Source of the DNA: a phage
Length of the DNA stretch: 64,000 bases
Direction: 5' to 3' (one strand)
Assembly (NCBI GenBank): GCA_017676145.1
Contig: GCA_017676145.1_3628.1
Numbering within the stretch: position 1 is the stretch's first letter; each line of letters opens with the position of its first letter. This document shows, piece after piece, positions 2,578-40,944 of the stretch. Below the pieces are notes generated by a model. It saw only the letters and a program-made list of their open reading frames with translations. It made no database searches and had not been told where the DNA came from. The position numbers were made by a program, and so were the translations under genes.

Positions 2578-2603
2578 AAAGGGGCCGTTTGGCCCCTTTT
2601 TTA
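2578..2603. terminator. bidirectional rho-independent terminator
   Basis: GGGGCC-gttt-GGCCCC hairpin flanked by A-run upstream and T-run downstream, between convergent genes ending at 2567 (+) and 2616 (-). Confidence 0.7.
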
Positions 2604-2615
2604 TTTACCCCCTTG

Positions 2616-5600
2616 TTAACGAGAAAAGGTTGCGTAGGCTTCTAGACGATACTGCTGGTCACCAGGGAACATAACACCTATAGAGGCTGTCCCTAGAATC
2701 CTGCCTTCCTTTCCAGACTCCATTCTGAACCCTACCCATCCTGAACTCCTTGCAGCATCGATGTTGTCTCTATACCCGAAAGTGGCAAGATCGTCAACAC
2801 CAGCCCCAAACAGCAACTGAAGCTGACTTCTCGGAAGCCCTATAATTTCAGGAATATACGCACCAAAGTACACCATCTGCCCTACCTTAGGACCGCTGCC
2901 GTACTCCATCGGCTTGCTTGTAGAGAAAGTCTTCATACCAGAAGTCCCTGCCGGATTAGGATATGCCCCGTTTGTTGCTGTACCTATCCACATTCTCCAC
3001 TGTGGTGCCATCTGTTTGACAGTAAAAGATGTTGAAGACGTTTTGCGCCCTGCATCATCTGTAACTACAAACTTTATAGTGACATTCCCAGTAGCTTTAA
3101 ATGTTACCAGCCCTGTGGTAGCATCCACTGTTGCAATGTTGGTATTACTACTTTCCCAAGTCTTTCTGATTCCTGGCACATTGGAAGGGGTAATAGAAGG
3201 TTCCTGCATCTGCAGTTTACCACCTACAATCCCTATCCCGTTTCCTGGATTATACAACGCACCAACCTCGTCTACAATGTTACCTGCCTTGAGGCTGTAC
3301 TTTTTAGAGAAGTTGTAAGTGCCGTTATATGTGTGTGTCCCTGAGAAGGTTACATCTGCTTTTCCGTAAGAGATGCAAACCAAAGCATACTTCCTGTCAG
3401 GCAACGGTGCCCCAGTTTCTGGGTGAGTTTTACCCACCTGAAACACACTCGGGTCAGTGGAGTCTTGGCTATCACTAACGGAGTTTGGACCCCCCATCAG
3501 TTGTGACAGGCAATTCCTTACCCATGTCCAGTTATTATCGCTGGAGAAGTCCACAGTTAAATCAAACACAACCCACTCATTTGGCTTCCACACAGGTGTT
3601 GCAATGGACTTGCCTACACCGCCTCCTTGGAGTGTTGCCGACTGTTCAGTGATCAGGGCCGCGTAGGCCAGAGTTCCTAAACTCAGAGTTTGGCTTGCTG
3701 TCCTCACTACCTTAGAATCAGCATCTGTGAAGTTGTTGATGATCTGGAATGTGCCATAAGTGTTTTTACAGGTAATTCTGGCGTTCAGCGTGTCAATCTT
3801 CCTCACATCTGCCATAGCAGTGTTAGACACAGAGAAGTCAGAAGCTTTAGCTGAGTTTGCCGCAACAGCAGGATCAACGTTAAGAGTTGCGTTGAACTGA
3901 CAAGCTGGGGTAACCAGCAGCTTGTTATCACCTATTTGCTTCCATGAAACACTTTGAACAGGGAGATTCCATTTAATACCTGAGAAAACTTTAGCAACCC
4001 TTGGCCCCAGAGCTCCAGTCCTGGTGTCTTTACAGCACATGGACATGGTGATCGTTGACGGAGTGGCCTGACCAAACAATTGCTGTGCTTTTGCAGAGGA
4101 CATGGTGTAGAAATTGTCCTTAACAAACTCATCAGCCGCCAATGATCCGTCAGATCTCCACCATTGCACCTGGTACCCTGTCTTATCCCAGCCACCGACC
4201 TGCTTCAGGTCCTCCCAGGAGATTTCCAGATCCCCAGTGGTAGGGTTGATTGCAGCAGTTCCTGGTGTTCCAGAGGACCATAATGGGATATCGAACCATG
4301 CTGGTTTAACAGATTGTACTGCGTTCGGTCCTATTGCAGCAGCAAGTTGCTGACCCATCAACACACGAGAATCTTTTACCAAGCCCCATTCAATCATGGA
4401 CCCAGAGTAGCCTTCTTTCTTATAGGCCGAAGATCCGTTCAAATGGATAAGCCTGCTGCAGTCGAAACCATACGCCCCGCCACCGTTAGGATCTGCAAAG
4501 TTAGTTATGATTCTATCCCTTATATTTTTCCATGCCCTGCCTCCAATCTCGTAGTCATGGTCATAACATCTCTGCAGCGTTGTCCAGCAAATGATTGCCA
4601 TTCTTCTGCCACCAGTAAACCCGAAAGCGCCGTCATTCAACTCTTTCCACAGATAGCAGTTAGTTGCCCACATAGCTCTGTGGATATTGAACCAGTTTAT
4701 AGACTTAGCAGAATTGTCCCACTGAGTTCCCGGTAATTCAGGCCACACTGCATTAACCAACATGTCTTCTGTTCCTGCATCAACTAAGAACCCTCTCACC
4801 TTTTTACCCATACCTGCCCTGTCTTTAGCAATCCAATTGCCAAACAGTCTCAGTTTTGGACCATAAACGACATCCTCTGGGTGCTCAAAAGAAACATACT
4901 TTAAGTAGATTGTTGGGTCACCGTAGGTGCCATCACAAACACTTTTGTGCATGTTTTCGCCAAGATCTAGACGAAGCCCTGTCACCACTTTAGACGTGTC
5001 GGTGAATTTGTCTGTTAAATCAAATTCATACCACCACCATCCACCACCAAGCATAAATTTCTTGCATCGAGCATTGTCTGTATCAGATATTCTCTTATCC
5101 CCTGCAAAAGGTGAATCAGCAAACTGATAATGCAGAGCAGTCTCGAATAAATGTGTTGAGGTTCCGTTTTCTGCAAGAACTTGCTTACCTATTAAGTCGC
5201 ACTTAATGATCATCACAACACGTTTGTACCCGTTTGTTACTGGAACTTGCATAGACATGGATGTCCCATCCATGTTTGATCTCAGCACGGTCATGACGAT
5301 ATAAGGGTCAACGGCATTGCCCAGAGTTTCAGGACCAGGGATTATCTTGTACTTCTTAACCTGCCCCATAAACCTGTCACTGGCGTAAGTTGCAGCCTCG
5401 AAGCAAGATCCTCCATTAGGTAGTTCGCCAGGACCCCAGAAAAATGCGCCATAACAGTTATAAAACCACTTGTTAGGATCGTATTTGTTCTTGAAGGTCT
5501 GAACCTCGTTAGCCTGTTTTGTCAAGAAAACCTGAGTATCTGTGAAGATTGCAGGATTCACTCTTGCCTGTCGATCAGCATATCCAGGTTGGTTAAACCA

Positions 5601-8252
5601 CTGATTGCAAGAATAGTCCCGCATATAGTCATAATCAGAGTATTTGTTGTTTGCATCCTCGTTCCAACACATATTAAGGTTGGTGCCGCCCATGCACACA
5701 ATATATTCTTCAACATATTTATCACTTCTGGTGGGAATACCTGTGAACCATCTGTTAACAGGTTCGTTCCAAGCGGTACGCTCATCTTTAACGCAGATCG
5801 CAATCCAGTCATGTGTTCCTGTTTTCTTGCACACATCTCGCTTCATACCATAGTAGAATTCTTTAGTATTCGGCTCAGGTGCGCTTATCAGGTAGCTCCA
5901 CGCTTGGTCTGCATAGGTTCCGTCGGTGCGTGGGTCATGATCAAAAGCGTACATAATGATCCTTTCCCCGCCAAGATGTTCACCAAGAGTAACTTTGATG
6001 TTCACATCCCCGTAACCATTGCGAACAACATCCATATTGTCAATAGAGATGCCTCTGGGTGTGTAGGCAATTTTCAGCGAGTTATCCTCACTGGTGCCGC
6101 CAAGAGTAATCCCAATATTGTTTGTCGTCCCGTCGGCATATCTTACCGTGGCTTCCCAGCGTATTCCGAAATATCCTACGTCATGGCTGACAATTTTTAG
6201 TGTACGAGCACCTGGGTTCGGTTTCCCAGGATCAGGCCAAGGGTTTGGGTGTTCGTGAACAGTCAACGATGTCCCGTTTTGTTCGTTGACCTGCAACATT
6301 TTACCACCTCTGCCGTTTGGGTTGAACTCCCATAAGGCCTGTGTCTGCACCAAGTTATCATAGGTATTTCGTCGCTGATTATAAATCTCTTGGGTAACAT
6401 CAGAAGTTACTGATCCAGCATCCATTCTATGGAGTCTGATCATATACGATGTATCCCCTTCTACTGCAGGCTGAGCCGCATTCAGTCCAAAGTATACGGT
6501 GTCATTAACATGGAACTGTTTGTTTCTACCGGCAGTATGCCATTTACCATCAGACGGGTACGCTGGGACGATAGTGTTCCAGTTCAAATTCCTTGTTGTG
6601 TGGGTCCTGCCTGTGCCATGTTTGTCATGATAGGTTATTTTTACAGAGTACAGGCCACGTCTATTAACATTCCTGTTATACTGGGTAACAATAACTTCGT
6701 TGGCCCCACCGTGGTTCCAGTTGGTAGAGAATTGGTAATTTGCATCTGTAACAACCGTGCCTGCAGCATTTACCAGTTCAATCTTATCAATAATGAACGT
6801 GGCCCCTTCTGGTTGAGGCTTCAATTTCATCTTGACCGTATCACCAATGTAAATATTGCTAACACTGCTAACACCGTTAACGTCGAAAATATCTTCAACA
6901 CCCCAACTATCTACTGGGACATTTTTATACCAATTCTCAGGTACCTCCGTGAACCCTTGGCTATTAAGTCTGCCGCCAAACAGGTTATTAGAGCCTGCAA
7001 AACTTCCCCTTGGGATACCTGACCACCAAAGTTTACCATTAACAACAGTAAAGGTTCCTAAAAAACCCTCCCTGTGAATGCCTTGGAAATAAACACTCTC
7101 TGTCCAGCTAACTGGGAGGCGTTGCTCAACGTATTTGGCTGTGGCAAGAGCTTGGTAGTGGATAAAATTGGCCCTAGGGCTATTGTTTGCAGATTGTGCA
7201 CCAATATCATTACATAAGTTGCGAGAGAATCCACGATACTGCTTAGTGCCATTATTGAAGAAAATACCGCTTGTTCCGTACCCACGAGCCATTATTACTT
7301 CATGGGTGTAGGTAATATTTAAGGAACGCCATGTATCATCTCCCCAGACATTTTGCCCGTAGAATACGTTAACAAGCTGCTGGTCATCAGGTCTGTGCAT
7401 TCTTTGTGTTACAACCACTGCCCCGTTCGGACCGCACATGAACCCTTTCCACTCCTCATCTGCAGGAATACCTCTCAAATCGTCACGGGTAATCTGAGCA
7501 GGAGGCCAAACAAGGTCGTTTCTACTGTTGTTTCTCAGAAAATCGTACCCAGCAATCCAGAAACCTCTAGGACCACCGAAAATAACAGAGTTATCATGCA
7601 CCTCACAGTTGATGCTTGGGTTTTTCCAAGGACCTGTTTCAGGATTTTCCGATGTTTCACCAATCTTTACAGGGGTTGCATGCTGGTTTTTATCCACATG
7701 TAAAGATCCGTAGGTGTTGTTACCAGATCCGTACAGGTGTAAAATGCCAGTGCCTTCTGCCTCTGCAATAACCCAAACAGTGTTGTTAATACCGCCCATC
7801 ACCTCAACAAGACGCTCTGGGTGGGTGTCAAGGTGCAACCCTTTAACAATCTGTTCAGGAAGAGGTGTCCACTCGCTTACGTAAACATCATTACCACCTG
7901 CCGCAGTGGATCCGATAAGACCTGCAGTGCAGCCGATGTAGAAAAACTGGTTATCAAAAGTCCGAATCACAAACGCACGGTCTGCTCTCCACACATGATC
8001 AACATTCCAGGCTGTTTCGCTAGGGTAGTTTATAGGGTTACGATCCCCAGTGCGACACTCCCCGAACTTGTTATAGCCAGTGATATTAAGTTGACCGTCG
8101 TCAAAAAGTATAGCTAAGCTATTTACATAGGCTACTGCAGTGCTTGTACCGTCACTGTTGTCTATTGGGTATGACAGAACAGCAAGTTCCTTAACTCCAC
8201 CCCTCTTATCGAGGAAATGACGACCAAGTTTTAGCAAAGGGATTGGAAGCAT
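2616..8252 (-). CDS. giant virion-associated protein (1878 aa), putative tail fibre/tailspike with C-terminal Ig-like domain
   Basis: Single uninterrupted 5.6-kb ORF at the distal end of the structural operon; C-terminal segment resembles bacterial Ig-like (Big_2-type) folds; Gly/Asn/Thr/Trp-rich composition typical of fibre or depolymerase proteins. Confidence 0.55.
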   Translation of the reverse strand: MLPIPLLKLGRHFLDKRGGVKELAVLSYPIDNSDGTSTAVAYVNSLAILFDDGQLNITGYNKFGECRTGDRNPINYPSETAWNVDHVWRADRAFVIRTFDNQFFYIGCTAGLIGSTAAGGNDVYVSEWTPLPEQIVKGLHLDTHPERLVEVMGGINNTVWVIAEAEGTGILHLYGSGNNTYGSLHVDKNQHATPVKIGETSENPETGPWKNPSINCEVHDNSVIFGGPRGFWIAGYDFLRNNSRNDLVWPPAQITRDDLRGIPADEEWKGFMCGPNGAVVVTQRMHRPDDQQLVNVFYGQNVWGDDTWRSLNITYTHEVIMARGYGTSGIFFNNGTKQYRGFSRNLCNDIGAQSANNSPRANFIHYQALATAKYVEQRLPVSWTESVYFQGIHREGFLGTFTVVNGKLWWSGIPRGSFAGSNNLFGGRLNSQGFTEVPENWYKNVPVDSWGVEDIFDVNGVSSVSNIYIGDTVKMKLKPQPEGATFIIDKIELVNAAGTVVTDANYQFSTNWNHGGANEVIVTQYNRNVNRRGLYSVKITYHDKHGTGRTHTTRNLNWNTIVPAYPSDGKWHTAGRNKQFHVNDTVYFGLNAAQPAVEGDTSYMIRLHRMDAGSVTSDVTQEIYNQRRNTYDNLVQTQALWEFNPNGRGGKMLQVNEQNGTSLTVHEHPNPWPDPGKPNPGARTLKIVSHDVGYFGIRWEATVRYADGTTNNIGITLGGTSEDNSLKIAYTPRGISIDNMDVVRNGYGDVNIKVTLGEHLGGERIIMYAFDHDPRTDGTYADQAWSYLISAPEPNTKEFYYGMKRDVCKKTGTHDWIAICVKDERTAWNEPVNRWFTGIPTRSDKYVEEYIVCMGGTNLNMCWNEDANNKYSDYDYMRDYSCNQWFNQPGYADRQARVNPAIFTDTQVFLTKQANEVQTFKNKYDPNKWFYNCYGAFFWGPGELPNGGSCFEAATYASDRFMGQVKKYKIIPGPETLGNAVDPYIVMTVLRSNMDGTSMSMQVPVTNGYKRVVMIIKCDLIGKQVLAENGTSTHLFETALHYQFADSPFAGDKRISDTDNARCKKFMLGGGWWWYEFDLTDKFTDTSKVVTGLRLDLGENMHKSVCDGTYGDPTIYLKYVSFEHPEDVVYGPKLRLFGNWIAKDRAGMGKKVRGFLVDAGTEDMLVNAVWPELPGTQWDNSAKSINWFNIHRAMWATNCYLWKELNDGAFGFTGGRRMAIICWTTLQRCYDHDYEIGGRAWKNIRDRIITNFADPNGGGAYGFDCSRLIHLNGSSAYKKEGYSGSMIEWGLVKDSRVLMGQQLAAAIGPNAVQSVKPAWFDIPLWSSGTPGTAAINPTTGDLEISWEDLKQVGGWDKTGYQVQWWRSDGSLAADEFVKDNFYTMSSAKAQQLFGQATPSTITMSMCCKDTRTGALGPRVAKVFSGIKWNLPVQSVSWKQIGDNKLLVTPACQFNATLNVDPAVAANSAKASDFSVSNTAMADVRKIDTLNARITCKNTYGTFQIINNFTDADSKVVRTASQTLSLGTLAYAALITEQSATLQGGGVGKSIATPVWKPNEWVVFDLTVDFSSDNNWTWVRNCLSQLMGGPNSVSDSQDSTDPSVFQVGKTHPETGAPLPDRKYALVCISYGKADVTFSGTHTYNGTYNFSKKYSLKAGNIVDEVGALYNPGNGIGIVGGKLQMQEPSITPSNVPGIRKTWESSNTNIATVDATTGLVTFKATGNVTIKFVVTDDAGRKTSSTSFTVKQMAPQWRMWIGTATNGAYPNPAGTSGMKTFSTSKPMEYGSGPKVGQMVYFGAYIPEIIGLPRSQLQLLFGAGVDDLATFGYRDNIDAARSSGWVGFRMESGKEGRILGTASIGVMFPGDQQYRLEAYATFSR

Positions 8253-8300
8253 TGTGTTCTCCAGATAAGAAAACCGCCCCGTCAGGAGCGGTCAGATATA

Positions 8301-10046
8301 TTAACGTTGTGCAATAACCACATCCACAATATCACCAACACCACAATATGTCAATTGTAGCAAGGTAACGCTGTTGGCTTTGTTGTTAATGACAGGGGTA
8401 GCCGACAGTATGGCATATTTATCGTGCAAAGTCACGTTGTGGCCTACAGCATCTTGAATGACATAGATGATTGCAGTAAACGGGTAAGGTTTATCTTCAG
8501 CCGATGTTCCAGGCCATTGGCCTATTGTAAAATCCCCTTTCGCGTGGACAACATACATGCTGGCCTGCCCGTTAGGTGTCCATGTCCCACTAGATGCGTC
8601 AACCTCCTCTAAATCAAAATCTACCTTCCCTGCGTGGAAAGTAGGGGCAGTAATAGTTTTACCAGCCTCAATTTCTTGAGAGGTGGTTATCTTACCACTG
8701 GAGTTAATGCCGTTGCAGACAAAGTTAACATTAGAGAAGTCTGGCAGCCACCCAGTCACCGTGCCGGATATTTCAAGGTTGTGAAGATAAGTGGTTCCCG
8801 TACCTGCTGCGTTTAAACTAACATCTCCATTTACCTGCAAGTTGCGGGTAACGTTGCAGTTTTCAGAGTTTGCAGTTGTTGCAGTTAGAGTAGTGGTTGT
8901 CAGCTCGGTAATTGCACCTTTGTTGGCTGTAAGCCCTTCTCCTTCAAAAGTGGCACGCTCATTCACCCTCAGAGTATTTAAAGATATGTTCTGGACGGAT
9001 GCTGTGCCACGAATGACTATAGATCCGCCAACCTCTAAATCTCCATTGATCAGTGCATCTCCCGTGCTTTCAATATAGCTAGGGTAGATCATGGTGCCAT
9101 CTACAGAGTAGGTTATCCCTGTAACGGTACCTGTCACCTCAAGGTTCTTAACCCTGGTGGTCCCATCAACCTGCAATGTCGGTTCGGTTGCTGCCTTCAT
9201 GGCATTACCACGAATGTACACGTAGTCAAAAAAGTTATTACCTAGACCATCAAAATGCACATCGTTGTTATTAGCCACTGGTTTCCCAGAAGTTATAGTG
9301 TCAGCTATAACTCTGTGGGTGGCTACTTCATGAGGTTGCAGCTCTGTGCTTCTCCAGTCTGCATGCTTAGGATCGCTCCACGCAAAAGTCAGTGTAGAAG
9401 TATTTGCAGTAAGGATTAGGTTCCTGAAGCGTGCAGTAGAATCCGCTCCATTAACAGGCCCGTGTAAGGTAAGGGTGCCACCAACTATGGTGTTAGCAAG
9501 TTCTGTAAGACCTTTTACCACCAAAGACCCTACAGTAACTTTCATCCCCTCCATGGCTTTAAATATGCTATCCACATAGTCCACAACAAACTCTGTGTTT
9601 GCTATAGACTCGGACTTATCGTCCATTGGAGGTGTAGGTACTCGCGGGTCACCTTCGAATCTTGGGCTGTTAAGTTTTGCGTAGTATTTTGCCATTACTG
9701 CAGAATCGGTATATAATCTCCAGTTCGGAGATTGTGAAGGATCTGCTGGCATCCTAACCGGGTTAGATTTTGATGCTGCTGGGGCGTACCACCACTGAGG
9801 GCCTGTATCCCCTTTAAACTCATACAACTGGTTAAAAACTGTTGTGGATGCACCATACGCCCAAGGGATTGGTGGCGTTTTAAAATAAAGGGTGTCAAGC
9901 ATGGCTTTTCGTACCGTAGGGATGGTGGTCCCATCCTCTACGACAACTTCATCCACAGCGTTACCGTTGACAATCAGGTGCAAACGTTCAGAATCAACAA
10001 TTACTTGATCTACCGCCTGCTCAAAGCTTGTCATGTCTTGCGCCAT
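8301..10046 (-). CDS. tail fibre protein (581 aa)
   Basis: Position within fibre gene block; Gly/Thr/Asn-rich repetitive beta-type composition. Confidence 0.5.
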   Translation of the reverse strand: MAQDMTSFEQAVDQVIVDSERLHLIVNGNAVDEVVVEDGTTIPTVRKAMLDTLYFKTPPIPWAYGASTTVFNQLYEFKGDTGPQWWYAPAASKSNPVRMPADPSQSPNWRLYTDSAVMAKYYAKLNSPRFEGDPRVPTPPMDDKSESIANTEFVVDYVDSIFKAMEGMKVTVGSLVVKGLTELANTIVGGTLTLHGPVNGADSTARFRNLILTANTSTLTFAWSDPKHADWRSTELQPHEVATHRVIADTITSGKPVANNNDVHFDGLGNNFFDYVYIRGNAMKAATEPTLQVDGTTRVKNLEVTGTVTGITYSVDGTMIYPSYIESTGDALINGDLEVGGSIVIRGTASVQNISLNTLRVNERATFEGEGLTANKGAITELTTTTLTATTANSENCNVTRNLQVNGDVSLNAAGTGTTYLHNLEISGTVTGWLPDFSNVNFVCNGINSSGKITTSQEIEAGKTITAPTFHAGKVDFDLEEVDASSGTWTPNGQASMYVVHAKGDFTIGQWPGTSAEDKPYPFTAIIYVIQDAVGHNVTLHDKYAILSATPVINNKANSVTLLQLTYCGVGDIVDVVIAQR

Positions 10047-10055
10047 GATTTCTCC

Positions 10056-10322
10056 TTAAGCTTTTTGCTCTTCGTTTTTAACGTGGTCAGGGTGCTGGCA
10101 ACCCCACCGGAGCGAGATGAATTTGCTAATAAGCTGGGGGCAAGCTACTGAAGGTGCGTATATCCACGCATACCATTCAGGAAGCGTATCATTGTACCCC
10201 ATATGAATAAACACCCCAGTCATCACTGCCATGCCTATGTTTGACCATAGCTTAGATTGGGACACTTTTGTAGGGTCATCAGATGCTGCAACCAGTCCCC
10301 ATAAAAACTGAGTTAATTTCAT
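10056..10322 (-). CDS. small membrane protein (88 aa)
   Basis: Hydrophobic segments (LWGLVAA, IGMAVMTGVFI); lies immediately downstream of fibre paralogue A. Confidence 0.4.
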   Translation of the reverse strand: MKLTQFLWGLVAASDDPTKVSQSKLWSNIGMAVMTGVFIHMGYNDTLPEWYAWIYAPSVACPQLISKFISLRWGCQHPDHVKNEEQKA

Positions 10323-10331
10323 TTACCCTCT

Positions 10332-11378
10332 TTAAGCATAAGATATGGTGATCCATTGACCGTTTACAAATTTTTGAATGGCTCCAGTCCAATAGTCGCC
10401 CTGATACGGGTGTTTATATGCGTAATTGCCGGAGCACATTACATGCCCAGGGTATACTCTTGATTCTCTGTAGGTGGTTCTGAAACGGTTTGCTATCCTT
10501 ACATCTTCAACACCTCTACTAGGCATAGGAATAGTAAGGTTACCACTACTGTCTGCGCTACTACCATTTACCCTGCGGACCACGTTTCTTCCACCAACTG
10601 TTGCATATTGACCCCTGGCGGTTTTATCGTTACAATCTACTCTTCCACCTATTTGAGCGCTGCCGCAGGATTGTTGCCCATTAACAGTGGATCTAGGTAT
10701 CGTTACCGCATTAGCATTTGCAGAGGAGCTTTTTGCATCATTGCATTCAAGATTTCCTTGGATAGCCAGTCTTGCACGGTTGGCAGTTATAGCATTGAGC
10801 TTCATAGCCGAAAACACAGGCTGCCCACCAGAAGGTTGAAATCTCCAACGGAAACCGTCTATTTGGTGAGAGGGATCATCAAGGTCTGTGCCGTCAGCAC
10901 CACCGATGTTGTCCATAATCCAGAAATCCATCATCGTCTTGTCTGGAGTTATGGTGGTGTATATCGCCGCACTATCTGTTGACGCGGATGCAAACTCGAT
11001 TCTTTGAAGACCTAAAGTTTGAGTCTGGATCATTGTGTCTCCAGCCTTGTCAACATAAAGGTCATCCATTTCTTCAGGCGAGTATACATTGAGAACTTGA
11101 CGTGCAGCAGCTTTGTCTGGAACGTCTGCCAGATTATTAGTGACCCTTAAGAATCTATTATCCCATCCTGGGACAACATCTTCTGTTAAATGCTTTAGCC
11201 ACGCAGAGAGCATGTGGAGTTCAAAGTTAACAACTTCACATGCTATCCTTTGTGTCATATCCCAACCTTTCAATCTCTCTTCTTTGTTCGGTTGAGATTT
11301 GTTCAACTCTCCTGTATTTTCAAGCACAACATCCTGATTGGCCCAAATATCAAGAGGGATAACTGGTTTAGTCATCAC
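10332..11378 (-). CDS. tail fibre protein, paralogue A (348 aa)
   Basis: Clear paralogue of 12391..13431 (shared PLxIWA N-terminus, GDTM motif, LQRI(E/N)F, FRWRFQP, C-terminal NGQWIT(I/V)(S/N)YA); GDTM(T)G-type motif common in phage tail fibres. Confidence 0.55.
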   Translation of the reverse strand: MMTKPVIPLDIWANQDVVLENTGELNKSQPNKEERLKGWDMTQRIACEVVNFELHMLSAWLKHLTEDVVPGWDNRFLRVTNNLADVPDKAAARQVLNVYSPEEMDDLYVDKAGDTMIQTQTLGLQRIEFASASTDSAAIYTTITPDKTMMDFWIMDNIGGADGTDLDDPSHQIDGFRWRFQPSGGQPVFSAMKLNAITANRARLAIQGNLECNDAKSSSANANAVTIPRSTVNGQQSCGSAQIGGRVDCNDKTARGQYATVGGRNVVRRVNGSSADSSGNLTIPMPSRGVEDVRIANRFRTTYRESRVYPGHVMCSGNYAYKHPYQGDYWTGAIQKFVNGQWITISYA

Positions 11379-11465
11379 GTTCTCCTGAGAAAATTCCTTA
11401 AGGACTATTTTAACACTTTAGAGAACAAAATGCAAGAACGGCATCCTTGCCGTTCTGACCTTTGT

Positions 11466-11791: not shown

Positions 11792-12376
11792 TTAGAGGGT
11801 AGGTCGTTCCGGGAAGAAAATGTCAGGGGCTTTAGATGTATCTATTTCAAGAAGTTTTACCCTGTACATTTTCAAATCTCTGATGTTGCGTTTTTGGTCA
11901 TCAGTGAGATCGTATTCAAGGTCAATCATGTCTTGATAGGCACCAATTCTAGCAGTAGCCCAAGCAAGTTCTGTCTCTATGACACCCTCTGCCTGTTGAA
12001 CAAAGAATTCATTGTCTGTGACAAATTCATCACCAACTAAACGCAAAGCGTCGTGGTGGAGCATAATGTTTTCTGGTACCTCTTCTTTTTTGGCGATAAC
12101 CACACGAAGACCTGGAGCAGGCCACAAGGCATCAGGTTCTTCTGTAGATGTCTTAAGAATACCCTTCTCGTCAACAAGTAGGAAGATACAGCCTGGATTT
12201 TCTTGTCGTAGTGTTCGTGATTGCACATACCAATCGCCATCATCATTACGTAAAAAATATCCAGTGTATGCCGTATAATCCTCAACCTCCTGAGGAGTCA
12301 GCTCCTTGGTACCTTTGTTGGTGTGGTATTCGCCAGATCCCGGTTGGTAAAGCTTAAACTCTTGAAGTATTTTCAT
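11792..12376 (-). CDS. tail fibre assembly protein (lambda Tfa-like chaperone)
   Basis: 194 aa; C-terminal KMYRVKLLEIDTSKAPDIFFPERP closely parallels the lambda Tfa C-terminus ([21 protein letters not shown], recalled from memory); sits directly downstream of a fibre gene. Confidence 0.7.
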   Translation of the reverse strand: MKILQEFKLYQPGSGEYHTNKGTKELTPQEVEDYTAYTGYFLRNDDGDWYVQSRTLRQENPGCIFLLVDEKGILKTSTEEPDALWPAPGLRVVIAKKEEVPENIMLHHDALRLVGDEFVTDNEFFVQQAEGVIETELAWATARIGAYQDMIDLEYDLTDDQKRNIRDLKMYRVKLLEIDTSKAPDIFFPERPTL

Positions 12377-12390
12377 GCTAGTCCTCCGAT

Positions 12391-13431
12391 CTACGCATAA
12401 TTAACAGTGATCCATTGACCATTTACAAGTTTCTGTAAAGGCCCTGCCCAGTAGGTTGAACCACGCATCTCTTTTTTATCACCAAAATGCCAACCTGTGA
12501 CAACGTAGCCGTTGCGAACTGGAGATTCAGAAACACCATCAACAAGTCTTGCGCCGATTCTGATATCCTGTACACCTGTCTGCGGGATGGTGATCGTTAC
12601 ATCCCCGTTGCCGTTAGCCGTCACTCCATTCACAGAGCGCACCACATTTCTGTTACCGACAACACAATGCTGGCTTCTTACAACCATACTGTCACAACTT
12701 GCACCGCCATTGACATATACTGACCCAGCCGTCAACTGACTAGCTACATTGCAGTTGGTGAATGTTGCTGTGCTGCTAATGGTGAGGTTATTACATCGCA
12801 TGTTATCAACAACTTCAACATTGCCCACCACTTTCAACAACGCACGATTAGCCGTGATTGCGTTCAGATACATCAAAGTGAACTCTGGGTTAATGTCAGG
12901 CTGAGTTGGCTGAAATCTCCAACGGAACGCATCTACTGTAGAGGTGCCACCATCATCAAACGCCCCAATATTATCACTTAACCCAAAGTCGAGAGTTGTC
13001 TTATCTGGGCCAATAGTTGTCTCTATCCAAGCCTTATCTGTCTCGGCAGCTTTAAAGTTGATACGTTGCAAACCCAATGGGCCTGTCATTGTATCACCTG
13101 TAACTTTCACATACCTGGCGTCTGCCTCTTCCTTAGTAATAATACCAAGGTTTCTACGGGCAACAGGGATGTTCAAAAGATCACTCAAGTTATTATCACG
13201 TACCAGATAACGGCCTTCTTGAGCGGGGATCTGCTCGTCAGCAATGTATTTTGCCCAAGTCCCGAGCATATTGAAAATATAGTTAAGTTCTTCACAGGAT
13301 GGCTTTTGACCAAGATCCCAACCTTTTCTCCACAAATCATCAATCGGGCGTAGCCTGTTCTGTCTGTGGGTGTTAGGCAGAACCTGATCCTCCTCTGCCC
13401 AAATCTCTAATGGAAAACTAGGTTTTGACAT
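12391..13431 (-). CDS. tail fibre protein, paralogue B (346 aa)
   Basis: Paralogue of 10332..11378; contains VTGDTMTGPLGLQRINF fibre motif. Confidence 0.55.
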   Translation of the reverse strand: MSKPSFPLEIWAEEDQVLPNTHRQNRLRPIDDLWRKGWDLGQKPSCEELNYIFNMLGTWAKYIADEQIPAQEGRYLVRDNNLSDLLNIPVARRNLGIITKEEADARYVKVTGDTMTGPLGLQRINFKAAETDKAWIETTIGPDKTTLDFGLSDNIGAFDDGGTSTVDAFRWRFQPTQPDINPEFTLMYLNAITANRALLKVVGNVEVVDNMRCNNLTISSTATFTNCNVASQLTAGSVYVNGGASCDSMVVRSQHCVVGNRNVVRSVNGVTANGNGDVTITIPQTGVQDIRIGARLVDGVSESPVRNGYVVTGWHFGDKKEMRGSTYWAGPLQKLVNGQWITVNYA

Positions 13432-13443
13432 TTTATCTCCTGA

Positions 13444-15516
13444 TTATGAGAAGTCTGGCGGGACAACATCTTCTACATACCCTTTCAGAGCAACCTGCCC
13501 CATATGGAGCACGGTAGAATCCCTAGCGGTAACAGTGATGCTGTCAGACATTACTTGCGGGTATGCCCACACATACTGTTTTACCTCAGGGTATCTATAC
13601 TCTATGGTTGCCATGTTCCCGCAGATACATCTCCATAAAAATTCTTGGTAATTCCTGGTTGGGTCGTAGCCATATACCGGAGCAAGCTCTTTGCTAGGAA
13701 CGAACCCTGCAAGGTATTGTATTTCAGACGGTTGCCAACCTAACTTAACGATAGGTATGTTTACAGACTCTTTTGCCTTTTCAATACCACCCTGCATCAC
13801 CCAATCGTAGCACTCAGTGCAGAAGAAATCAAGAGCACCTGCTTCCTTTTTATATTGGTCAGCAAGGTTCAGCTTTTGCGTAAGCTCGGTTTCCATAATG
13901 GTCGGGAAAAACAGCAAAGCTGTCATCTGAGCCGATGCAGCGTGTGCTTTTATTGCCTTTGAAATAGCTGCAATACGAGCGCCAAGCTTACCACGACAAA
14001 ATGCTACATACTTGTCATAAACACCGCCAGTTTTAGGATCGTCAATAGTCCCAATGTCTAGTGCATATTCACCAGTCTCATCATAAAACGCCTGTTTTGT
14101 AGGGTAGTCATAAATACAAGGCTTACGAGTATCGGTATTGAACCACCACCACGGTTCACCAATCTGCATAATTACTGGCAGGTTGTTTCTCATAGCGGCT
14201 GATGCAAAATTCTTAAATACTGCAGTAAGGAAATTCATACCCTCTTCAATGGTTGGAGACAAGAGGTAACTACAAGGCGTATAGCCTGTTTTAGCATAGT
14301 TATCGTTCCAATCTCTCTGGGTCCATTCCAACGGACAGGCATCGCTATAAAGCTCAAAGCTTACAGACTGCATAACGTCGAAGTCATGTCGCTTGGCATT
14401 ATACATAAAGTCATCGTGCCATTTATAAGCTGCAGCGTTTAGAGCCCCTGTCCTGTTTATAGACCATTGGGTTCCGGACCATGTGTAATCATAATAATGG
14501 CTCATACCAACATAATGGTTTATGGTTCCGGTATAGCCCAGACGCTTGATATTGCTCACCACCCTTAAAGGAGATACGTTCCACATATCGTCATATGCTG
14601 TGCAGATCCCAACGTCGTGCTCTTTCACCTGGATATTGTTAAGTTGCATCATTTTCCAGCCTGTGTCTGGCTGAAGCAGATCTAGACGCAACTCACACTC
14701 TACATTTTCCGTTCTTGGGTCTGTACTATTACTTACCCAATCTTTAGGCATAAGTGGTATTAGAATCCTTCTCACCTGTCGAGGATCAACACCCATCATG
14801 TTGTTGTTCTGGTCCATCCCGACGCAGTCCTCGAAATCAATATGAATTTCTGCAACATTCTTATCCTCTGAGATGCTGACAGCATATTGAGCTAAAGGAA
14901 CATAGATGATTGTGCCATCAACAAGGTCTACAGTCATAATCATCTTTTCAGGGGTGGAGAAGTTGCTGGCATTGGTTATTGACATTCTGAACCAAAGCTT
15001 GGTGTTTCTCATCTCGTAGTGATCATCAAATCCAATGCCGAAATGGTCATACTTGTCAACTGTTTCCCAAATGCACCCAGCCATGCCTCCATATGTTCTT
15101 GACACTAAACGGTTAATACAGCAGTTATTATCTGCAACAATACAGGTGCTTTCAGTCTGCTGGGTAGTTGTAACCCAATATCTTGGGTGAAACATTCTCT
15201 CCTCAACAGTATCCCAAGATATTCTGTCAAGATTCTCATCTGAAACTATTGTGCATTTCGCTCTTTGTGTTCCAATCATAACCCCTTGAGAGTTTGATGA
15301 AAACTCCATAAAGAAGCTTCTTGGCAACCTGTTTGGCAATTTGTCAACAATTTCTACAGGGATCTCAATACTGGTTGCCCCAACCGGGATAGTTACATCG
15401 CCCTCAACATGATCATAATCTCTACCTGGAACTGCAGTATCCTGAACTGTGCGGTAATGAAACCGTGCAGCCATCGTAGAGTAATCACGGTAAGGTTTAA
15501 AAACAGCTGTTGCCAT
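13444..15516 (-). CDS. virion protein with Calx-beta-like N-terminal domain (690 aa), possible tailspike/enzyme
   Basis: N-terminus GRDYDHVEGDVTIPVGATSIEIPVEIVD resembles the Calx-beta motif; large Trp/Tyr-rich body. Confidence 0.45.
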   Translation of the reverse strand: MATAVFKPYRDYSTMAARFHYRTVQDTAVPGRDYDHVEGDVTIPVGATSIEIPVEIVDKLPNRLPRSFFMEFSSNSQGVMIGTQRAKCTIVSDENLDRISWDTVEERMFHPRYWVTTTQQTESTCIVADNNCCINRLVSRTYGGMAGCIWETVDKYDHFGIGFDDHYEMRNTKLWFRMSITNASNFSTPEKMIMTVDLVDGTIIYVPLAQYAVSISEDKNVAEIHIDFEDCVGMDQNNNMMGVDPRQVRRILIPLMPKDWVSNSTDPRTENVECELRLDLLQPDTGWKMMQLNNIQVKEHDVGICTAYDDMWNVSPLRVVSNIKRLGYTGTINHYVGMSHYYDYTWSGTQWSINRTGALNAAAYKWHDDFMYNAKRHDFDVMQSVSFELYSDACPLEWTQRDWNDNYAKTGYTPCSYLLSPTIEEGMNFLTAVFKNFASAAMRNNLPVIMQIGEPWWWFNTDTRKPCIYDYPTKQAFYDETGEYALDIGTIDDPKTGGVYDKYVAFCRGKLGARIAAISKAIKAHAASAQMTALLFFPTIMETELTQKLNLADQYKKEAGALDFFCTECYDWVMQGGIEKAKESVNIPIVKLGWQPSEIQYLAGFVPSKELAPVYGYDPTRNYQEFLWRCICGNMATIEYRYPEVKQYVWAYPQVMSDSITVTARDSTVLHMGQVALKGYVEDVVPPDFS

Positions 15517-17705: not shown

Positions 17706-17772
17706 GTCACTCCTCCGGTATGAAAATCTCTACAAGGTATTTTACCAAATTTTGTAACAATAGTCAATCTGA

Positions 17773-23218: not shown

Positions 23219-23281
23219 TGTGCCTCCAGGTTAAACAATCATGATAATTATTTTACCAGATTTTAAGTTAATACGCAATAT

Positions 23282-23317: not shown

Positions 23318-26300
23318 TTACTTCAATTTTCCTTGTAACTCGGTGACAACCTCTGTCAATTTTTTAACCTGTTCCTCAAGGGAGGTTATTCTATCATCTT
23401 GTTCTCTGCAAACCTGAACAAGCAATCCTGTTACAGCAGCATAGTCAACATTATAGAATCTTTCCTCGGTCATCAGAGGAATACCATCTTGAGTAGGACC
23501 AGGAACCTCTTTCCTTTTCACGAAAGAACCAACCGCTTCAGGTAATGCTTCCATAACCTCTTGAGCAATTACCCCCGCGTGAGGCATACCATTCTCTTTT
23601 AGAGTGTAGGTATAGCCTTTCATCTTACGGATAGCTTCCAGCGCGTTAGGAATAACCTCTATGTTATCCTTCAGGTCACGGTCAGAGCTCTGGCTGACAG
23701 CAGTGCACTCTACTACGCCGTTAACAGCAAGGTACCTTGACTTGGCCTCATCTGTCTTAGCACCACAATGCCATACCCAACTGGCAGATGTAGCGTTGTC
23801 GTTTATCTGGAACTCAAGCACGTTCTTCCTGTCTGCGCCATTACCCCAGTAGTACATTCTGCCTGTATTAGAAGGCATGTTGGAAGTGTTGGTAACATCA
23901 GTCCCACCACCTGTATGTATCATGAACTCCGGGTCAAGATTGGAGCCTGCGGTTTTAAGAGTAATTCCCTTACCACCAAGCTGCTGCCAAGGTCCCCATG
24001 TGAAAACACTACCTATTGTTGTTCCATAACGCAGGAATTTTTCCCCAAGATATGATATATACTCCTGTACGCAACTCTCTGGAACATTGGCGTAGTTCCT
24101 GTACACTATAAGCGTACCTGCTCGGGAGCATGGGTAGTTTCTATCAGGTGTGGCTTGAGCATTGGCCTCCTGATGATAAAAACCTTCCCTATCCCCTTTA
24201 TAGTCGTTAAGGTCATTAACCCCCAGACCTTGCCCTCTGTGTTGTATGACCTTGTTCCACGCTCTATGGTTACCACCCTCGATAGACCTGGTGTATAACT
24301 GATCAAGGCGACCAGCCATTTGGAAAGCATAGTTCCCAGAAAAAGCCACAGACAGTCCACCAACAACCATCGAACCTTCTGGTCCGTTGACGTTGCCAGC
24401 CATTATTTTGGACGGGTTATTAGGCCCAAACTGGTTGTTCCAGTCTGCACCAGTGTGGCATACAAAACCACCAGGAGCTGAGAAAGTGCCATCTTTGTTG
24501 AAGTTGTAGAATCTGTGAGCAGAACCTACAACATCACGAACAATAACTTGACCAGCCTCTGGAGTAGATCTGAACTCTGCCTGTCCTTGCAGTCTTGCGC
24601 CATTACCGCATTTAGAGGTAAAGGTATTGTTGATCAGATCCTCTGTTCCTTCCGATGCAGCTTGGAACCCTGCGTTAGAGAACAGTGCTTTTCTAGTGGT
24701 TTGGCTACCCGGGCAAATGTAGTTAAGACCGTTGTACCACATCTCTACAGGGGGCATTTCTGTCTTACTCATCAGAACCATTCGGTCAGGTGTGCCTATA
24801 TAGTGCCGATCTGTACTACCGCCTGTATAGAACCCAGGTGTTCCCTTGAACTCCGCAAGAGTCCTAGTGTTTGTTACATCATCACCTTTAATTGCAAGGC
24901 TTAAATTATCCGACGCAAGAGGGGCGCAAAACTTGACACCATCTTGGTTATTAGTAACATTTCCTACCTGCCAGTCATTTTCTCTGGTAAATACCTCAAG
25001 AACGTTTCTGCTTGTGTAGACACTGACAGGGAAAGCACGCGACTCAACATAGAATGCAACATACTCCTGCTTTCCTCTGGTTGGGGATACACATCCAAGA
25101 ATTGCTTTCTCGTTTTGGTAGAAATTAATAACCCCTTGGAAAGAATCCCCTCTGTCTGTCCACCCACCGGTTCTATAGTGACACTGTAAGGTCGCACAGT
25201 TCATAGGGTCACTGCCAGATGACGATCTGGTAACTATAGTAATATCAGTACCAGTTGTGGGCGCATAGTATGGATCTGTTCTAACGATGATTGGGTAGTA
25301 TTTCCCATCTTCCATTCCTGCAGTTCTTGGCAGTGTTAAGAAATCTTTTACGCCTGCCGCTACAGGAACTTTGAACAGATTCTGAGCATCTGCTAAAGTT
25401 GTAGCTCCAGTGCCACCTGCGGCCTGAGGTAAAGGTTCCCACTTGGCCTTCCGGTTGTTATAAACACCCCATTCCAGAGTACCATTACCGGACTCATCCA
25501 TCCCTCCATCCCAGACGACCATCTTGGCGGCTTTCTTGGAACCCCAGAATCCTCTTTCTGCCCCTGAACTACGAATCCATTCTCCAAGTCCCCAGTTTGT
25601 CAGCTGACCAGTGAGATCCCCGACCTGCATGTACTTAGGACAATCTAATACACCATCTTCACGGAATCCTAAATACCGATGAGTTTCAGATCCTTTTGCG
25701 CCTTTGTGCAGGTGGACTGTTAACCAAGTCTTATTGTCGTTTCTTACCTCGGAGTAGATCCTATACCCATGCTCAAGGACACCGTCAGCACTGTATTTGT
25801 CCCCGTTAACAATACCTGATGCCGACTTAACATCAGCAGAGCTTTGAGACAGGTAAAGGTGCCCGAAGGTAGGGGAATTTCTAGACCCAAGACCGATGTG
25901 CGATCTAAAAGTATCATCGTTACGAGGTCTGACCATTGGCTGCCATGCAGTCCACTGGTTTGTGTTGGCCTGATAGGTTCTTAAATACCAAACATCTACG
26001 TTAGAGAATGGATAGTATTCCTGACGACAGCCAGTGCCACCGTTAGCATTGTTCTGCCAAACAATCAAGTGACCAGCACCAGAACCTGCAGGATAACCAT
26101 TTGCCTCAGTTGCATTAGCTGTCATCGGCTGGTAGTATATGCCGTCCTGATTACCAGTCAAGTTATTGATATTGAAATTTGCCTCAAGGGCTGCACGTTG
26201 CTTATAGAAAGCACCGATATTGATACGGACTCCAGCGGCATCTCTGGCTCCTGTACCGCCTTGCTCTATAGCAAGAGGTTGCCACGAGGCTGTTTGCTGG

Positions 26301-37345: not shown

Positions 37346-37388
37346 TTTATAGCATCCTTATTAGTCATGTTGTGCACCATATTTGTGT

Positions 37389-37417
37389 ATTTTACCATGA
37401 TTATGGTGCATTGTCAA
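37389..37417 (-). promoter_or_regulatory. sigma70-like promoter (TTGACA-17-TAAAAT) with flanking inverted repeat
   Basis: On minus strand TTGACAatgcaccataatcatggTAAAAT; inverted repeat TGCACCATA / TATGGTGCA brackets the -10; located upstream of chaperone/tape measure genes. Confidence 0.5.
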
Positions 37418-40903: not shown

Positions 40904-40944
40904 TAATGTATTTTACCACAAAGATACATCAAAAGCAACAATTT

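What the first reader, a model, noticed from the sequence alone, without database searches (positions are those of the whole stretch)
2616..8252. 1878-aa terminal ORF of the structural operon: candidate giant fibre/depolymerase
This single uninterrupted ORF is the largest gene in the window. It ends in an Ig-like domain, has a Trp/Tyr/Gly-rich central region of the kind seen in carbohydrate-active tailspikes, and is closed by a bidirectional terminator. Its specificity is probably a major host-range determinant.
Basis: inference. Interest (0 to 1): 0.4.

Follow-up and report, generated by a model that had tools for sequence, protein, structure and literature searches.

The report
Giant Ig-rich accessory tail protein
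This 1878-residue gene is the already-catalogued rV5 gp27 orthologue of an E. coli Vequintavirus, best read as a low-copy adhesin-like tail appendage (RCC1-like propeller, Ig-like and sugar-binding-like modules, an orphan core) with no detectable depolymerase domain.

Summary
The ORF is real: 2616-8252, minus strand, 1878 aa, the largest gene in the window. It is closed by a bidirectional hairpin terminator. The window is an rV5-like Vequintavirus, and the gene is the orthologue of rV5 gp27, conserved at 88-99% aa identity in more than 100 phage genomes. BASEL already annotates it as 'lateral tail fiber protein with intimin domain'.

New here:
- The first ~440 aa are an RCC1-like beta-propeller. 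It is shared with much smaller (564-890 aa) syntenic 'tail proteins' of Seunavirus and Phapecoctavirus.
- The rest is a string of Ig-like beta-sandwiches, one CBM-like jelly-roll, one above-threshold Big_2 domain and a variable C-terminal domain.
- The central 500 aa have no relatives outside the family among 1.84 billion representative proteins.

No glycoside-hydrolase, lyase, beta-helix or fibre-chaperone signature was found, but about 300 aa of the conserved core could not be modelled. Virion evidence is weak (3 poor peptides in rV5).

The fibre/host-range idea is plausible. The depolymerase idea is unsupported. Ordinary, already-known gene; modest interest.

The parts
2616..8252 (-). Complete ORF, 1878 aa plus stop (orthologue of rV5 gp27; phrog_15684)
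6933..8252 (-). aa 1-440: RCC1-like beta-propeller. It is the most conserved module and the putative virion-docking anchor. Blade number not verified.
   Evidence: The five-genus family profile hits UVR8 at 1e-12, HERC1 RLD at 6e-10, then RPGR/HERC2/RCC2. PF25390 is sub-threshold here. The RCC1 repeat is above cutoff in syntenic orthologues at the aligned 'YGSGxNxxGxLG' blade. The AF2 model is poor and the internal-repeat HMM is weak.
5715..6905 (-). aa ~450-846: three to four tandem Ig-like beta-sandwich domains. This part is replaced by a different sequence in homologue P0015.
   Evidence: AF2 pLDDT 55-83. Foldseek matches NCAM, Sap S-layer, nectins and AgI/II adhesins.
5358..5714 (-). aa 847-965: Cys/Trp/Tyr-rich conserved segment. 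Fold unknown (pLDDT about 25).
4878..5357 (-). aa 966-1125: beta-jelly-roll, probably the part that resembles carbohydrate-binding modules. aa 951-1000 is an allelic hot spot.
4260..4877 (-). aa 1126-1331: conserved alpha-helical orphan core. Invariant motifs are E1162-D-M-L-V, N1186-W-F-N-x-H-R-A-M-W, C1222-W, R1228-C-Y, E1235-I-G-G and E1280-G-Y..S-M-I-E1288-W-G. This is the only candidate for an unrecognised catalytic domain.
   Evidence: No Pfam hit, no PDB hit, no relatives in 1.84e9 proteins.
3969..4259 (-). aa 1332-1428: beta-sandwich (Ig/FN3-like) domain
   Evidence: AF2 pLDDT 59-80
3669..3968 (-). aa 1429-1528: poorly modelled, poorly conserved linker/domain. This is where distant homologues diverge.
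2973..3668 (-). aa 1529-1760: Ig-like array including Pfam Big_2 (aa 1686-1733 = nt 3054-3197). The Big_2 module is shared with the small syntenic homologues.
2619..2972 (-). aa 1761-1878: C-terminal beta domain. It is the most variable part among cultured orthologues, is specific to the giant family, and is the putative distal ligand-binding tip.
   Evidence: Two allele classes, about 96% and about 79% identity. Lowest pairwise identity, 0.66, at aa 1751-1800. Not shared with the small homologues.
2578..2599 (.). Bidirectional rho-independent terminator between the convergent genes (= rV5 t026/t027)
8272..8293 (-). Hairpin plus T-run between the gp28-like fibre gene and this ORF (= rV5 t028). 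Likely a partial terminator that lowers expression of the giant ORF (inferred).
   Evidence: Annotated as a terminator in phage Alma.
8259..8262 (-). GGAG ribosome-binding site, 6 nt before the ATG
11406..11415 (-). Nearest upstream rV5-type late-promoter motif (TGTTAAAATA = rV5 P030). It is the probable start of the gp30-gp29-gp28-gp27 transcription unit.

Best explanation
The ORF encodes a low-copy, accessory, adhesin-like appendage of the tail-fibre apparatus of an rV5-like myovirus.

Shown:
- It is the orthologue of rV5 gp27.
- It is the last cistron of the tail-fibre block.
- Its first ~440 aa are an RCC1-like beta-propeller, homologous and syntenic with the N-terminus of 564-890-aa 'tail proteins' of Seunavirus and Phapecoctavirus.
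- Downstream lie autonomous Ig-like sandwiches, a CBM-like jelly-roll, a Big_2 domain and a variable C-terminal domain.

Inferred:
- The conserved propeller docks the protein on the virion, most plausibly on or next to the always-adjacent gp28-type fibre or the baseplate periphery.
- The protein is a monomeric beads-on-a-string arm, not a trimeric fibre.
- The CBM-like, Ig-like and C-terminal modules make weak, reversible contacts with surface polysaccharides. These would raise adsorption or extend host range without being the essential receptor-binding step.
- The hairpin in front of the gene keeps the copy number low.
- The conserved orphan core (aa ~850-1330) has an unknown role.
For: Identity and conservation:
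- 97% nt identity to Vequintavirus genomes, with 108 records covering at least 80% of the gene.
- Full-length match to phrog_15684.

Synteny:
- The order 'gp28-like fibre, this gene, bidirectional terminator' holds in SYGMH1, a metagenomic relative, ukendt, PVP-SE1 and FENT2.

Propeller:
- The five-genus profile hits solved RCC1-like propellers, UVR8 at 1e-12 and HERC1 at 6e-10.
- Orthologues score above Pfam's RCC1 cutoff at the aligned blade.
- The N-terminus is the most conserved part.
- Stand-alone RCC1-annotated proteins are genuine virion components in the related phage W70, at 141-233 spectra (PMC11370258).

Adhesin-like modules:
- Big_2 is above threshold.

Distal variability:
-.

No trimeric-fibre features:
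- No Caudo_TAP chaperone gene after it and no S74 domain, although both occur on neighbouring fibre genes.

Virion presence:
- rV5 gp27 is listed in the virion MS table.

Expression:
- Hairpin at 8272-8293, and no late-promoter motif between it and 11406.
Against: - Virion evidence is weak. The three rV5 peptides are semi-tryptic, with 9 spectra, 3.1% coverage and poor ranks, and the main text of that paper does not list gp27.
- The small PVP-SE1 homologue is not among that phage's MS-detected proteins.
- No structure places the protein on any virion.
- The propeller could not be confirmed by structure prediction (pLDDT about 25-30). The protein alone is below Pfam thresholds, and the blade count is unverified.
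- About 300 conserved residues (aa 847-965 and 1126-1331) are unmodelled and could hold an activity that changes the picture.
- The monomeric state and the docking partner are inferences only.
Confidence: 0.45

Rival explanations
1. It is a depolymerase or glycanase. On this reading the conserved orphan core (aa ~850-1330: an alpha-helical segment with invariant Glu/Asp/His, flanking a CBM-like jelly-roll) is a new, unrecognised carbohydrate-active catalytic domain carried on a fibre.
For: - The core is strongly conserved, with invariant acidic and His residues: E1162, D1163, H1191, E1235, E1280, E1288.
- It is aromatic- and Cys-rich.
- It lies next to a CBM-like module.
- Vequintavirinae fibres are known to carry several glycan-active domains (PMC8594841).
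- The region could not be modelled, so a catalytic fold is not excluded.
Against: - No catalytic family in Pfam, NCBIfam or PHROGs, even at E<=10.
- No PDB sequence match to the profile at E<=10.
- No homologue outside the family among 1.84e9 representatives, so no link to any enzyme family.
- BASEL assigns the glycosidase domain to the neighbouring gp28 orthologue and the deacetylase to another protein, not to this one.
Confidence: 0.2
2. It is a virion decoration that is not part of the receptor-recognition fibres. It might sit on the capsid, neck or sheath, and its Ig-like modules would mediate non-specific adherence (to mucus, debris or cell surfaces) in the manner of T4 Hoc, not host-range determination.
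For: - The C-terminal 290 aa match phrog_215, 'structural protein with Ig domain', filed under head and packaging, at 1.8e-46.
- Split alleles exist in viable isolates, including an in-frame stop (ECP26) and a 10-nt deletion (EPFV3).
Against: - The gene sits inside the tail-fibre block, immediately after a fibre gene, in three genera.
- The N-terminal family is filed as 'tail protein' (phrog_11922).
- No head fibres are described for rV5.
- The split-allele rate is not clearly above that of an essential control gene. Frameshift-type splits are 5/60 here and 3/60 in the control, about equal per unit length.
Confidence: 0.15
3. It is not a stable virion component. It could be a late-expressed protein acting in the infected cell or released at lysis, for example a free glycan-binding or biofilm-active protein.
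For: - Virion MS support is marginal and is absent for the PVP-SE1 homologue.
- The terminator-like hairpin upstream sets the gene apart from the fibre genes.
Against: - There is no signal peptide or transmembrane segment in the sequence (by inspection).
- The gene is co-oriented with and contiguous to the fibre genes, with no promoter motif of its own.
- The modular 'conserved N-terminus, variable C-terminus' pattern is typical of virion-attached binding proteins.
Confidence: 0.1

Closest known systems
rV5 gp27 (ABI79098; phrog_15684) and its Vequintavirus orthologues, annotated 'Ig-like domain-containing protein' or, in BASEL, 'lateral tail fiber protein with intimin domain'
   Same: Same gene: 94% aa identity to rV5, same length, same neighbours and same flanking terminators.
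   Different: Nothing substantive differs. Its function has never been tested. The existing annotations rest on the Big_2 hit and the gene's position only.
Syntenic 'tail proteins' of Seunavirus (PVP-SE1 gene 40, 604 aa; FENT2, 564 aa) and Phapecoctavirus (ukendt gp231 / phAPEC8, 890 aa); phrog_11922
   Same: Same locus (last gene after the gp28-type fibre, before a bidirectional terminator). Homologous RCC1-like N-terminal propeller (25-40% identity, colinear over about 440 aa). A shared Big_2 module.
   Different: The giant protein carries about 1000-1300 additional residues (extra Ig-like domains, the CBM-like jelly-roll, the orphan helical core) and a different C-terminal domain.
Stand-alone RCC1-annotated virion proteins of Septuagintavirus W70 (W70_237-239, about 40 kDa, phrog_4219)
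   Same: RCC1-like proteins in the same phage subfamily, experimentally detected in virions (PMC11370258).
   Different: A different PHROG, encoded elsewhere in the genome, with no Ig-like extension. No direct homology to this protein was tested here.
Phage N4 gp65 non-contractile tail sheath protein (PDB 9lc0)
   Different: N4 gp65 has a TIM-barrel deacetylase-like domain and no propeller. In this window a separate protein (13444-15516) is the true gp65 homologue.
Dispensable accessory fibres and Ig-like decorations (lambda Stf, T5 L-shaped fibre pb1, T4 Hoc; Ig-like domains on phages, Fraser et al. 2006). This comparison is from general knowledge.
   Same: This is the proposed way of working: reversible glycan contacts that speed adsorption or adherence but are not essential.
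   Different: Stf and pb1 are trimeric fibres with chaperones, and Hoc is a small capsid protein. None has an RCC1-like propeller or the orphan core. Dispensability of this protein is not established.

Membership tests
rV5 gp27 orthologue group (phrog_15684) | Full-length sequence match | tested here: met
   phrog_15684 matches 1-1878/1878 at E=0. 88-99% aa identity to 108 phage records.
rV5 gp27 orthologue group (phrog_15684) | Conserved locus: after the gp28-type fibre gene, before the bidirectional terminator and the convergent small genes | tested here: met
RCC1-like domain (Pfam PF25390 / PF00415; seven-bladed propeller) | Profile match above the curated threshold in this protein | tested here: not met
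   PF25390 scores 24 bits against a cutoff of 150. RCC1_2 scores 13.4 against 22.
RCC1-like domain (Pfam PF25390 / PF00415; seven-bladed propeller) | Homology at family level to solved RCC1-like propellers and to orthologues that pass the threshold | tested here: met
   The A5 profile hits UVR8 at 1.2e-12, HERC1 at 5.9e-10 and RPGR at 5e-6. PVP-SE1 and FENT2 orthologues score 36 bits on the RCC1 repeat against a cutoff of 21.7, at the aligned blade.
RCC1-like domain (Pfam PF25390 / PF00415; seven-bladed propeller) | Seven blades of about 50-60 aa forming a closed propeller | tested here: inconclusive
   AF2 gives only short beta-hairpins at pLDDT 20-35. The internal-repeat HMM finds one strong and one or two weak blades. 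Seven Gly-motif positions were seen by eye only.
Tailspike / fibre depolymerase (trimeric beta-helix or other carbohydrate-active catalytic domain) | Recognisable glycoside-hydrolase, lyase, esterase or beta-helix domain | tested here: not met
Tailspike / fibre depolymerase (trimeric beta-helix or other carbohydrate-active catalytic domain) | Known tailspike N-terminal particle-binding domain | tested here: not met
   PF18668 Tail_spike_N is found on the neighbour at 23318-27124, not on this protein.
Tailspike / fibre depolymerase (trimeric beta-helix or other carbohydrate-active catalytic domain) | Polysaccharide-degrading activity (plaque halo, product release) | not testable with these tools
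   Requires wet-lab assays.
Classical trimeric tail fibre (T4 gp12/gp37, Mu S, lambda Stf type) | Dedicated assembly chaperone gene downstream, or a C-terminal intramolecular chaperone (Peptidase_S74) | tested here: not met
   The downstream neighbour is a convergent 66-aa ORF of unknown function. A Caudo_TAP-type chaperone gene (phrog_136, 11792-12376) follows the short-fibre gene at 12391-13431, and an S74 domain lies on the 23318-27124 protein, but neither accompanies this gene.
Classical trimeric tail fibre (T4 gp12/gp37, Mu S, lambda Stf type) | Fibrous trimeric fold (coiled coil, triple beta-helix) | tested here: inconclusive
   The confident domains are autonomous globular beta-sandwiches. 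Oligomeric state was not predicted.
Phage structural proteins bearing Big_2 Ig-like domains | Big_2 domain above the Pfam threshold | tested here: met
   PF02368 scores 31.7-35 bits against 22.8 at aa 1686-1733. PDB intimin and Sap hits.
Phage structural proteins bearing Big_2 Ig-like domains | Presence in the virion | tested here: inconclusive
   rV5 MS gave 3 semi-tryptic peptides, 9 spectra and 3.1% coverage. The protein is listed as an rV5-only virion protein in PMC11370258 Table S6.

The most novel reading that the evidence does not exclude
Two new things may be hidden in an already-catalogued gene.

(i) The conserved orphan core (aa ~850-1330) has no sequence relative in 1.84 billion representative proteins and no PDB match. 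It could be a new fold with a new activity on enterobacterial surface glycans.

(ii) The RCC1-like beta-propeller could be a previously undescribed class of virion-docking or ligand-binding module, used across Vequintavirinae and Stephanstirmvirinae tail appendages and possibly in jumbo coliphages.
Probability: 0.15. Interest if true: 0.6.

Novelty: already known. Interest (0 to 1): 0.3.

Why it matters
Vequintaviruses are among the most frequently isolated broad-host-range coliphages and are used in therapeutic and biocontrol cocktails. It is still unclear which gene builds which of their several fibres (PMC8594841).

This 208-kDa protein takes up about 4% of the genome and is conserved in every member, yet its function has never been tested. 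Knowing that it is propeller-anchored and adhesin-like, and not a recognisable depolymerase, has three practical consequences:
- It tells engineers not to expect capsule-degrading activity from it.
- It points to the C-terminal ~130 aa as the likely swappable specificity element.
- It marks the orphan core and the RCC1-like anchor as worthwhile targets for structural work.

As a discovery it is modest. The gene and its presumed fibre role are already in the literature.

Tried and rejected
- AF2 of aa 1-760 (pLDDT 47) and aa 731-1878 (pLDDT 56) left the propeller, aa 847-965, aa 1126-1331 and aa 1429-1528 unmodelled. No structural statement is made for those parts.
- Word-indexed homology searches with the N-terminal 450 aa alone and with the five-genus profile returned only close relatives or Seunavirus-type proteins, with no new architectures.
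- The exhaustive HMMER scan with the central profile returned only the family itself. The PDB profile search returned nothing.
- The sigma70-like promoter at 8326-8354 is rejected as evidence. The scan found 12 sites against 11.2 expected by chance, and this site lies inside the gp28 coding sequence.
- Dispensability from split alleles: 7 of 60 records are split (frameshifts in YP-6, Alma, EPFV3, naswa and ime; ECP26 has a verified in-frame stop; phita32 is annotated as two ORFs and was not examined). An essential control gene of 1279 aa shows 3 of 60 frameshift-type splits, about the same rate per unit length. Only the ECP26 stop codon and the EPFV3 10-nt deletion are hard to ascribe to sequencing error, so this is left as suggestive.
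- The internal-repeat HMM used to count blades gave one strong and one or two weak repeats, so the count stays open.
- The hypothesis 'giant = small homologue plus an insertion' is only partly borne out. The propeller and Big_2 are shared, but the extreme C-terminal domain is not.
- Pfam PF26918 is precomputed on close homologues but absent from the local Pfam copy, so its identity is unresolved.
- The PVP-SE1 proteomics paper is not held. The phiTE and phi92 cryo-EM papers do not mention a homologue.
- A literature search for RCC1-like propellers in phage tails found nothing relevant.
Full report
**Observation.** The window holds an uninterrupted ORF at 2616-8252 on the minus strand. It has an ATG start, 1878 codons and a TAA-type stop at 2616-2618. 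It is the largest ORF in the window; the next are 1279 and 1268 aa. An open frame of this length is not a chance event (about 7e-48 at this composition). A GGAG ribosome-binding site lies 6 nt before the ATG.

The downstream hairpin at 2578-2599 (AAAGGGGCC-GTTT-GGCCCCTTT) has T-runs on both strands. It lies between this ORF and a convergent 66-aa ORF, and it folds well on both strands, so the 'bidirectional terminator' is confirmed.

Pfam Big_2 is above threshold at aa 1686-1733, but a further ~120-145 aa domain follows, so the protein does not literally end in the Ig-like domain. The central region is modestly enriched in Trp, Tyr, Gly and Cys relative to the other structural proteins of the window: 3.6/5.2/9.8/2.4% against 1.7/3.9/8.0/1.0%.

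It sits between the stop of the preceding tail-fibre gene (8301) and this ATG.

**What the window is.** The gene is 97% identical in DNA to Escherichia phages SYGMH1 and YP-6, and 91-93% identical to FV3 and other rV5-like phages. 121 phage records match and 108 cover most of the gene. The window is therefore a Vequintavirus (rV5-like myovirus).

The gene is the orthologue of rV5 ORF27, which is 1878 aa, 208 kDa, 94% aa identical to this protein and annotated 'hypothetical protein; cell wall surface anchor'. The rV5 paper's own table already lists all three hairpins as t026/t027 and t028. [quoted passage not shown] The object and its presumed fibre role are therefore already known, but no function has been tested.

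**Transcription context.** rV5-type late-promoter motifs (TGGTAAAATA) are enriched in the window, with 22 matches at one mismatch or fewer against 5.8 expected. The nearest one upstream of the giant ORF is at 11406-11415, the counterpart of rV5 P030.

The likely unit is short tail fibre (10332-11378), a small membrane protein (10056-10322), the gp28-type fibre (8301-10046), the hairpin, the giant ORF, and then the bidirectional terminator. Read-through of the hairpin would give fewer transcripts for the giant ORF than for the fibre genes. That step is an inference. The sigma70-like site at 8326-8354 is not above chance.

**Module 1, aa 1-440: RCC1-like propeller.** tblastn shows that only the first ~200 aa are shared, at 30-40% identity, with 'tail proteins' of Phapecoctavirus, Seunavirus and Cronobacter/Enterobacter phages. 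These proteins occupy the same locus: last gene after the gp28-type fibre, followed by a bidirectional terminator. They are much smaller: ukendt gp231 is 890 aa, PVP-SE1 gene 40 is 604 aa and FENT2 is 564 aa.

The smaller proteins carry RCC1 signatures. The PF00415 repeat scores 36 bits against a cutoff of 21.7, and PF25390 reaches 1e-8 to 1e-10, each followed by Big_2. A five-genus alignment is colinear over the whole ~440 aa. The RCC1 repeat falls on the invariant Y174-G-S-G-x-N-x-x-G-x-L motif of this protein.

The profile of that alignment hits solved RCC1-like seven-bladed propellers: UVR8 at 1.2e-12, HERC1 RLD at 5.9e-10, RPGR at 5e-6, then HERC2 and RCC2. The protein alone is below Pfam thresholds, AF2 failed on this region, and an internal-repeat HMM could not count the blades. 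The fold assignment therefore rests on family-level homology.

This is the most conserved part of the protein, both among distant homologues and among cultured orthologues.

**Module 2, aa ~450-846: tandem Ig-like domains.** These are three to four Ig-like sandwiches with moderate pLDDT. Foldseek matches NCAM, the Sap S-layer protein, nectins and streptococcal adhesins. One metagenomic homologue (P0015) has replaced this stretch with a different sequence.

**Module 3, aa ~847-1331: the conserved core.** It comprises three parts:
- a Cys/aromatic-rich segment (unmodelled);
- a well-modelled ~160-aa beta-jelly-roll, aa 966-1125;
- a ~200-aa alpha-helical segment with invariant motifs EDMLV, NWFNxHRAMW, CW, RCY, EIGG and EGY..SMIEWG (unmodelled).

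A profile of aa 840-1340 found nothing in the PDB at E<=10. It also found nothing outside its own family among 1.84 billion representative proteins. Among deposited phages the central module occurs only in Vequintavirus. It is an orphan.

**Module 5, aa ~1761-1878: variable C-terminal domain.** This beta domain is specific to the giant family. It is the most variable part among cultured orthologues, with pairwise identity 0.66 at aa 1751-1800 and two allele classes at about 96% and about 79% identity.

**Is it a depolymerase?** Nothing supports this:
- no catalytic family in Pfam, NCBIfam or PHROGs, even at permissive thresholds and on isolated segments;
- no tailspike N-terminal domain, no S74 chaperone and no downstream assembly chaperone, all of which do occur on neighbouring fibre genes.

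BASEL places the glycosidase domain on the neighbouring gp28 orthologue and the ECA/NGR-related deacetylase on another protein. In this window that other protein is the N4 gp65-like TIM-barrel protein at 13444-15516.

The caveat is that about 300 conserved residues of the core could not be modelled, and they carry invariant acidic and His residues. A novel catalytic domain cannot be excluded, and I give that rival 0.2.

**Is it in the virion?** The rV5 MudPIT table lists protein 27 with 3 peptides, 9 spectra and 3.1% coverage. The peptides are semi-tryptic with mediocre scores, and two other proteins at the bottom of the same table look like noise. The paper's text does not name gp27.

A later comparative table lists gp27 as an rV5-only virion protein and does not list the PVP-SE1 homologue. 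Indirect support comes from the related phage W70, where three stand-alone RCC1-annotated proteins are robust virion components at 141-233 spectra. Virion association is likely but not established.

**Is it dispensable?** Several deposited genomes carry split alleles:
- YP-6: +1 T in a T-run at aa 396;
- Alma: -1 nt at aa 208;
- ECP26: TCT to TAG at codon 617;
- EPFV3: a 10-nt deletion at aa 1275;
- naswa, ime and phita32 were seen only as split annotations.

In the four alleles examined, the rest of the frame stays open. A control with the essential 1279-aa J-like protein shows frameshift-type splits in 3 of 60 records, against 5 of 60 here. That is about the same rate per unit length. Most of the signal may therefore be sequencing error. 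The stop codon and the 10-nt deletion remain suggestive only.

**Mechanism proposed.** The conserved N-terminal propeller anchors the protein to the tail-fibre/baseplate network. The gp28-type fibre, which is its invariable neighbour in three genera, is the obvious candidate partner (inferred). The remainder forms a long, probably monomeric, beads-on-a-string arm. Its CBM-like, Ig-like and variable C-terminal modules make reversible contacts with surface glycans (inferred from fold resemblance and the variation pattern).

The upstream hairpin limits copy number (inferred). This resembles how accessory side fibres and Ig-like decorations work, and, structurally, N4 gp65. The protein is not a member of any of those families. 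Confidence 0.45.

**Novelty and interest.** The gene is an already-catalogued, highly conserved Vequintavirus gene, and its putative fibre role is in the literature. The additions here are:
- the RCC1-like propeller and its orthology to small syntenic tail proteins;
- the demonstration that the core is an orphan;
- the negative result on depolymerase signatures.

Interest is modest (0.3). The most novel reading not excluded is a new glycan-active fold in the core, or a new class of propeller docking module. I give it about 0.15.

Noticed in passing
window 8272-8293 (- strand): A strong hairpin plus T-run (-17.1 kcal/mol, z -4.1) lies directly upstream of the giant ORF, between it and the gp28-type fibre gene. 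It equals rV5 t028 and is annotated as a terminator in phage Alma. It probably attenuates read-through into the giant gene.
   Followed up: partly
GenBank MG0656xx records (hits H7-H12, H22, H34, H37 and others): About 15-20 records named 'Campylobacter phage' with host Campylobacter jejuni carry this gene at 91-96% aa identity, and the J-like gene at about 98%, to E. coli Vequintaviruses. They are unannotated and look like mislabelled or contaminant coliphage genomes.
   Followed up: no
window 13444-15516 (- strand): A 690-aa protein with Pfam NCTSP_N and TIM-barrel_NCTSP domains (E 2e-79), homologous to the phage N4 gp65 non-contractile sheath protein. This is the protein recent work links to ECA/NGR recognition in Vequintavirus.
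   Followed up: partly
window 10056-10322 (- strand): An 88-aa membrane-protein gene (phrog_1322, filed as a moron) sits inside the tail-fibre transcription unit, between the short fibre gene and the gp28-type fibre. The same arrangement, with annotated transmembrane segments, occurs in PVP-SE1 and FENT2. Its role in a fibre operon is unexplained.
   Followed up: no
window 10332-11378 and 12391-13431 (- strand), with 11792-12376: Two paralogous short-tail-fibre genes (both phrog_4465), with a Caudo_TAP-type assembly chaperone gene between them. This is the duplicated gpS/gpU-like locus described for Vequintavirinae.
   Followed up: no
window 17738-17747, 23249-23258, 37388-37397, 40909-40918 (- strand): Exact copies of the rV5 late-promoter core TGGTAAAATA lie just upstream of structural genes. 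The motif is enriched, with 22 matches at one mismatch or fewer against 5.8 expected, and nearly all are on the minus strand.
   Followed up: partly
Loci L011-L014 (YP-6, Alma, ECP26, EPFV3-03/2025); also naswa, ime, phita32: The gene is split in several deposited genomes by independent lesions: +1 T, -1 nt, TCT to TAG at codon 617, and a 10-nt deletion. The rest of the frame stays intact in each. A control gene shows a similar frameshift rate per unit length, so only the stop codon and the 10-nt deletion are persuasive.
   Followed up: yes
Hits H131, H132, H149 (Escherichia phages ph0011, BF17, TH47; 348-383 kb): Weak matches (24-27% identity, E about 1e-6) to the propeller domain occur in jumbo coliphages. 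This hints that the RCC1-like module is used more widely in large myoviruses.
   Followed up: no
P0018: A 318-aa partial protein attributed by NCBI to Eggerthella lenta is 100% identical to part of this phage protein's N-terminus, on a 955-bp contig. This is probably coliphage contamination of a bacterial assembly.
   Followed up: no
P0001, P0022-P0024, P0027: Pfam family PF26918 is precomputed on the giant protein's close homologue and on several small Seunavirus-type homologues. It is absent from the local Pfam copy, so which segment it covers and what it is called remain unknown.
   Followed up: partly
window about 56000: GC skew changes sign from about -0.1 to +0.13, and the coding strand switches from minus to plus. 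This marks the boundary between the structural/late block and a divergently transcribed block.
   Followed up: no
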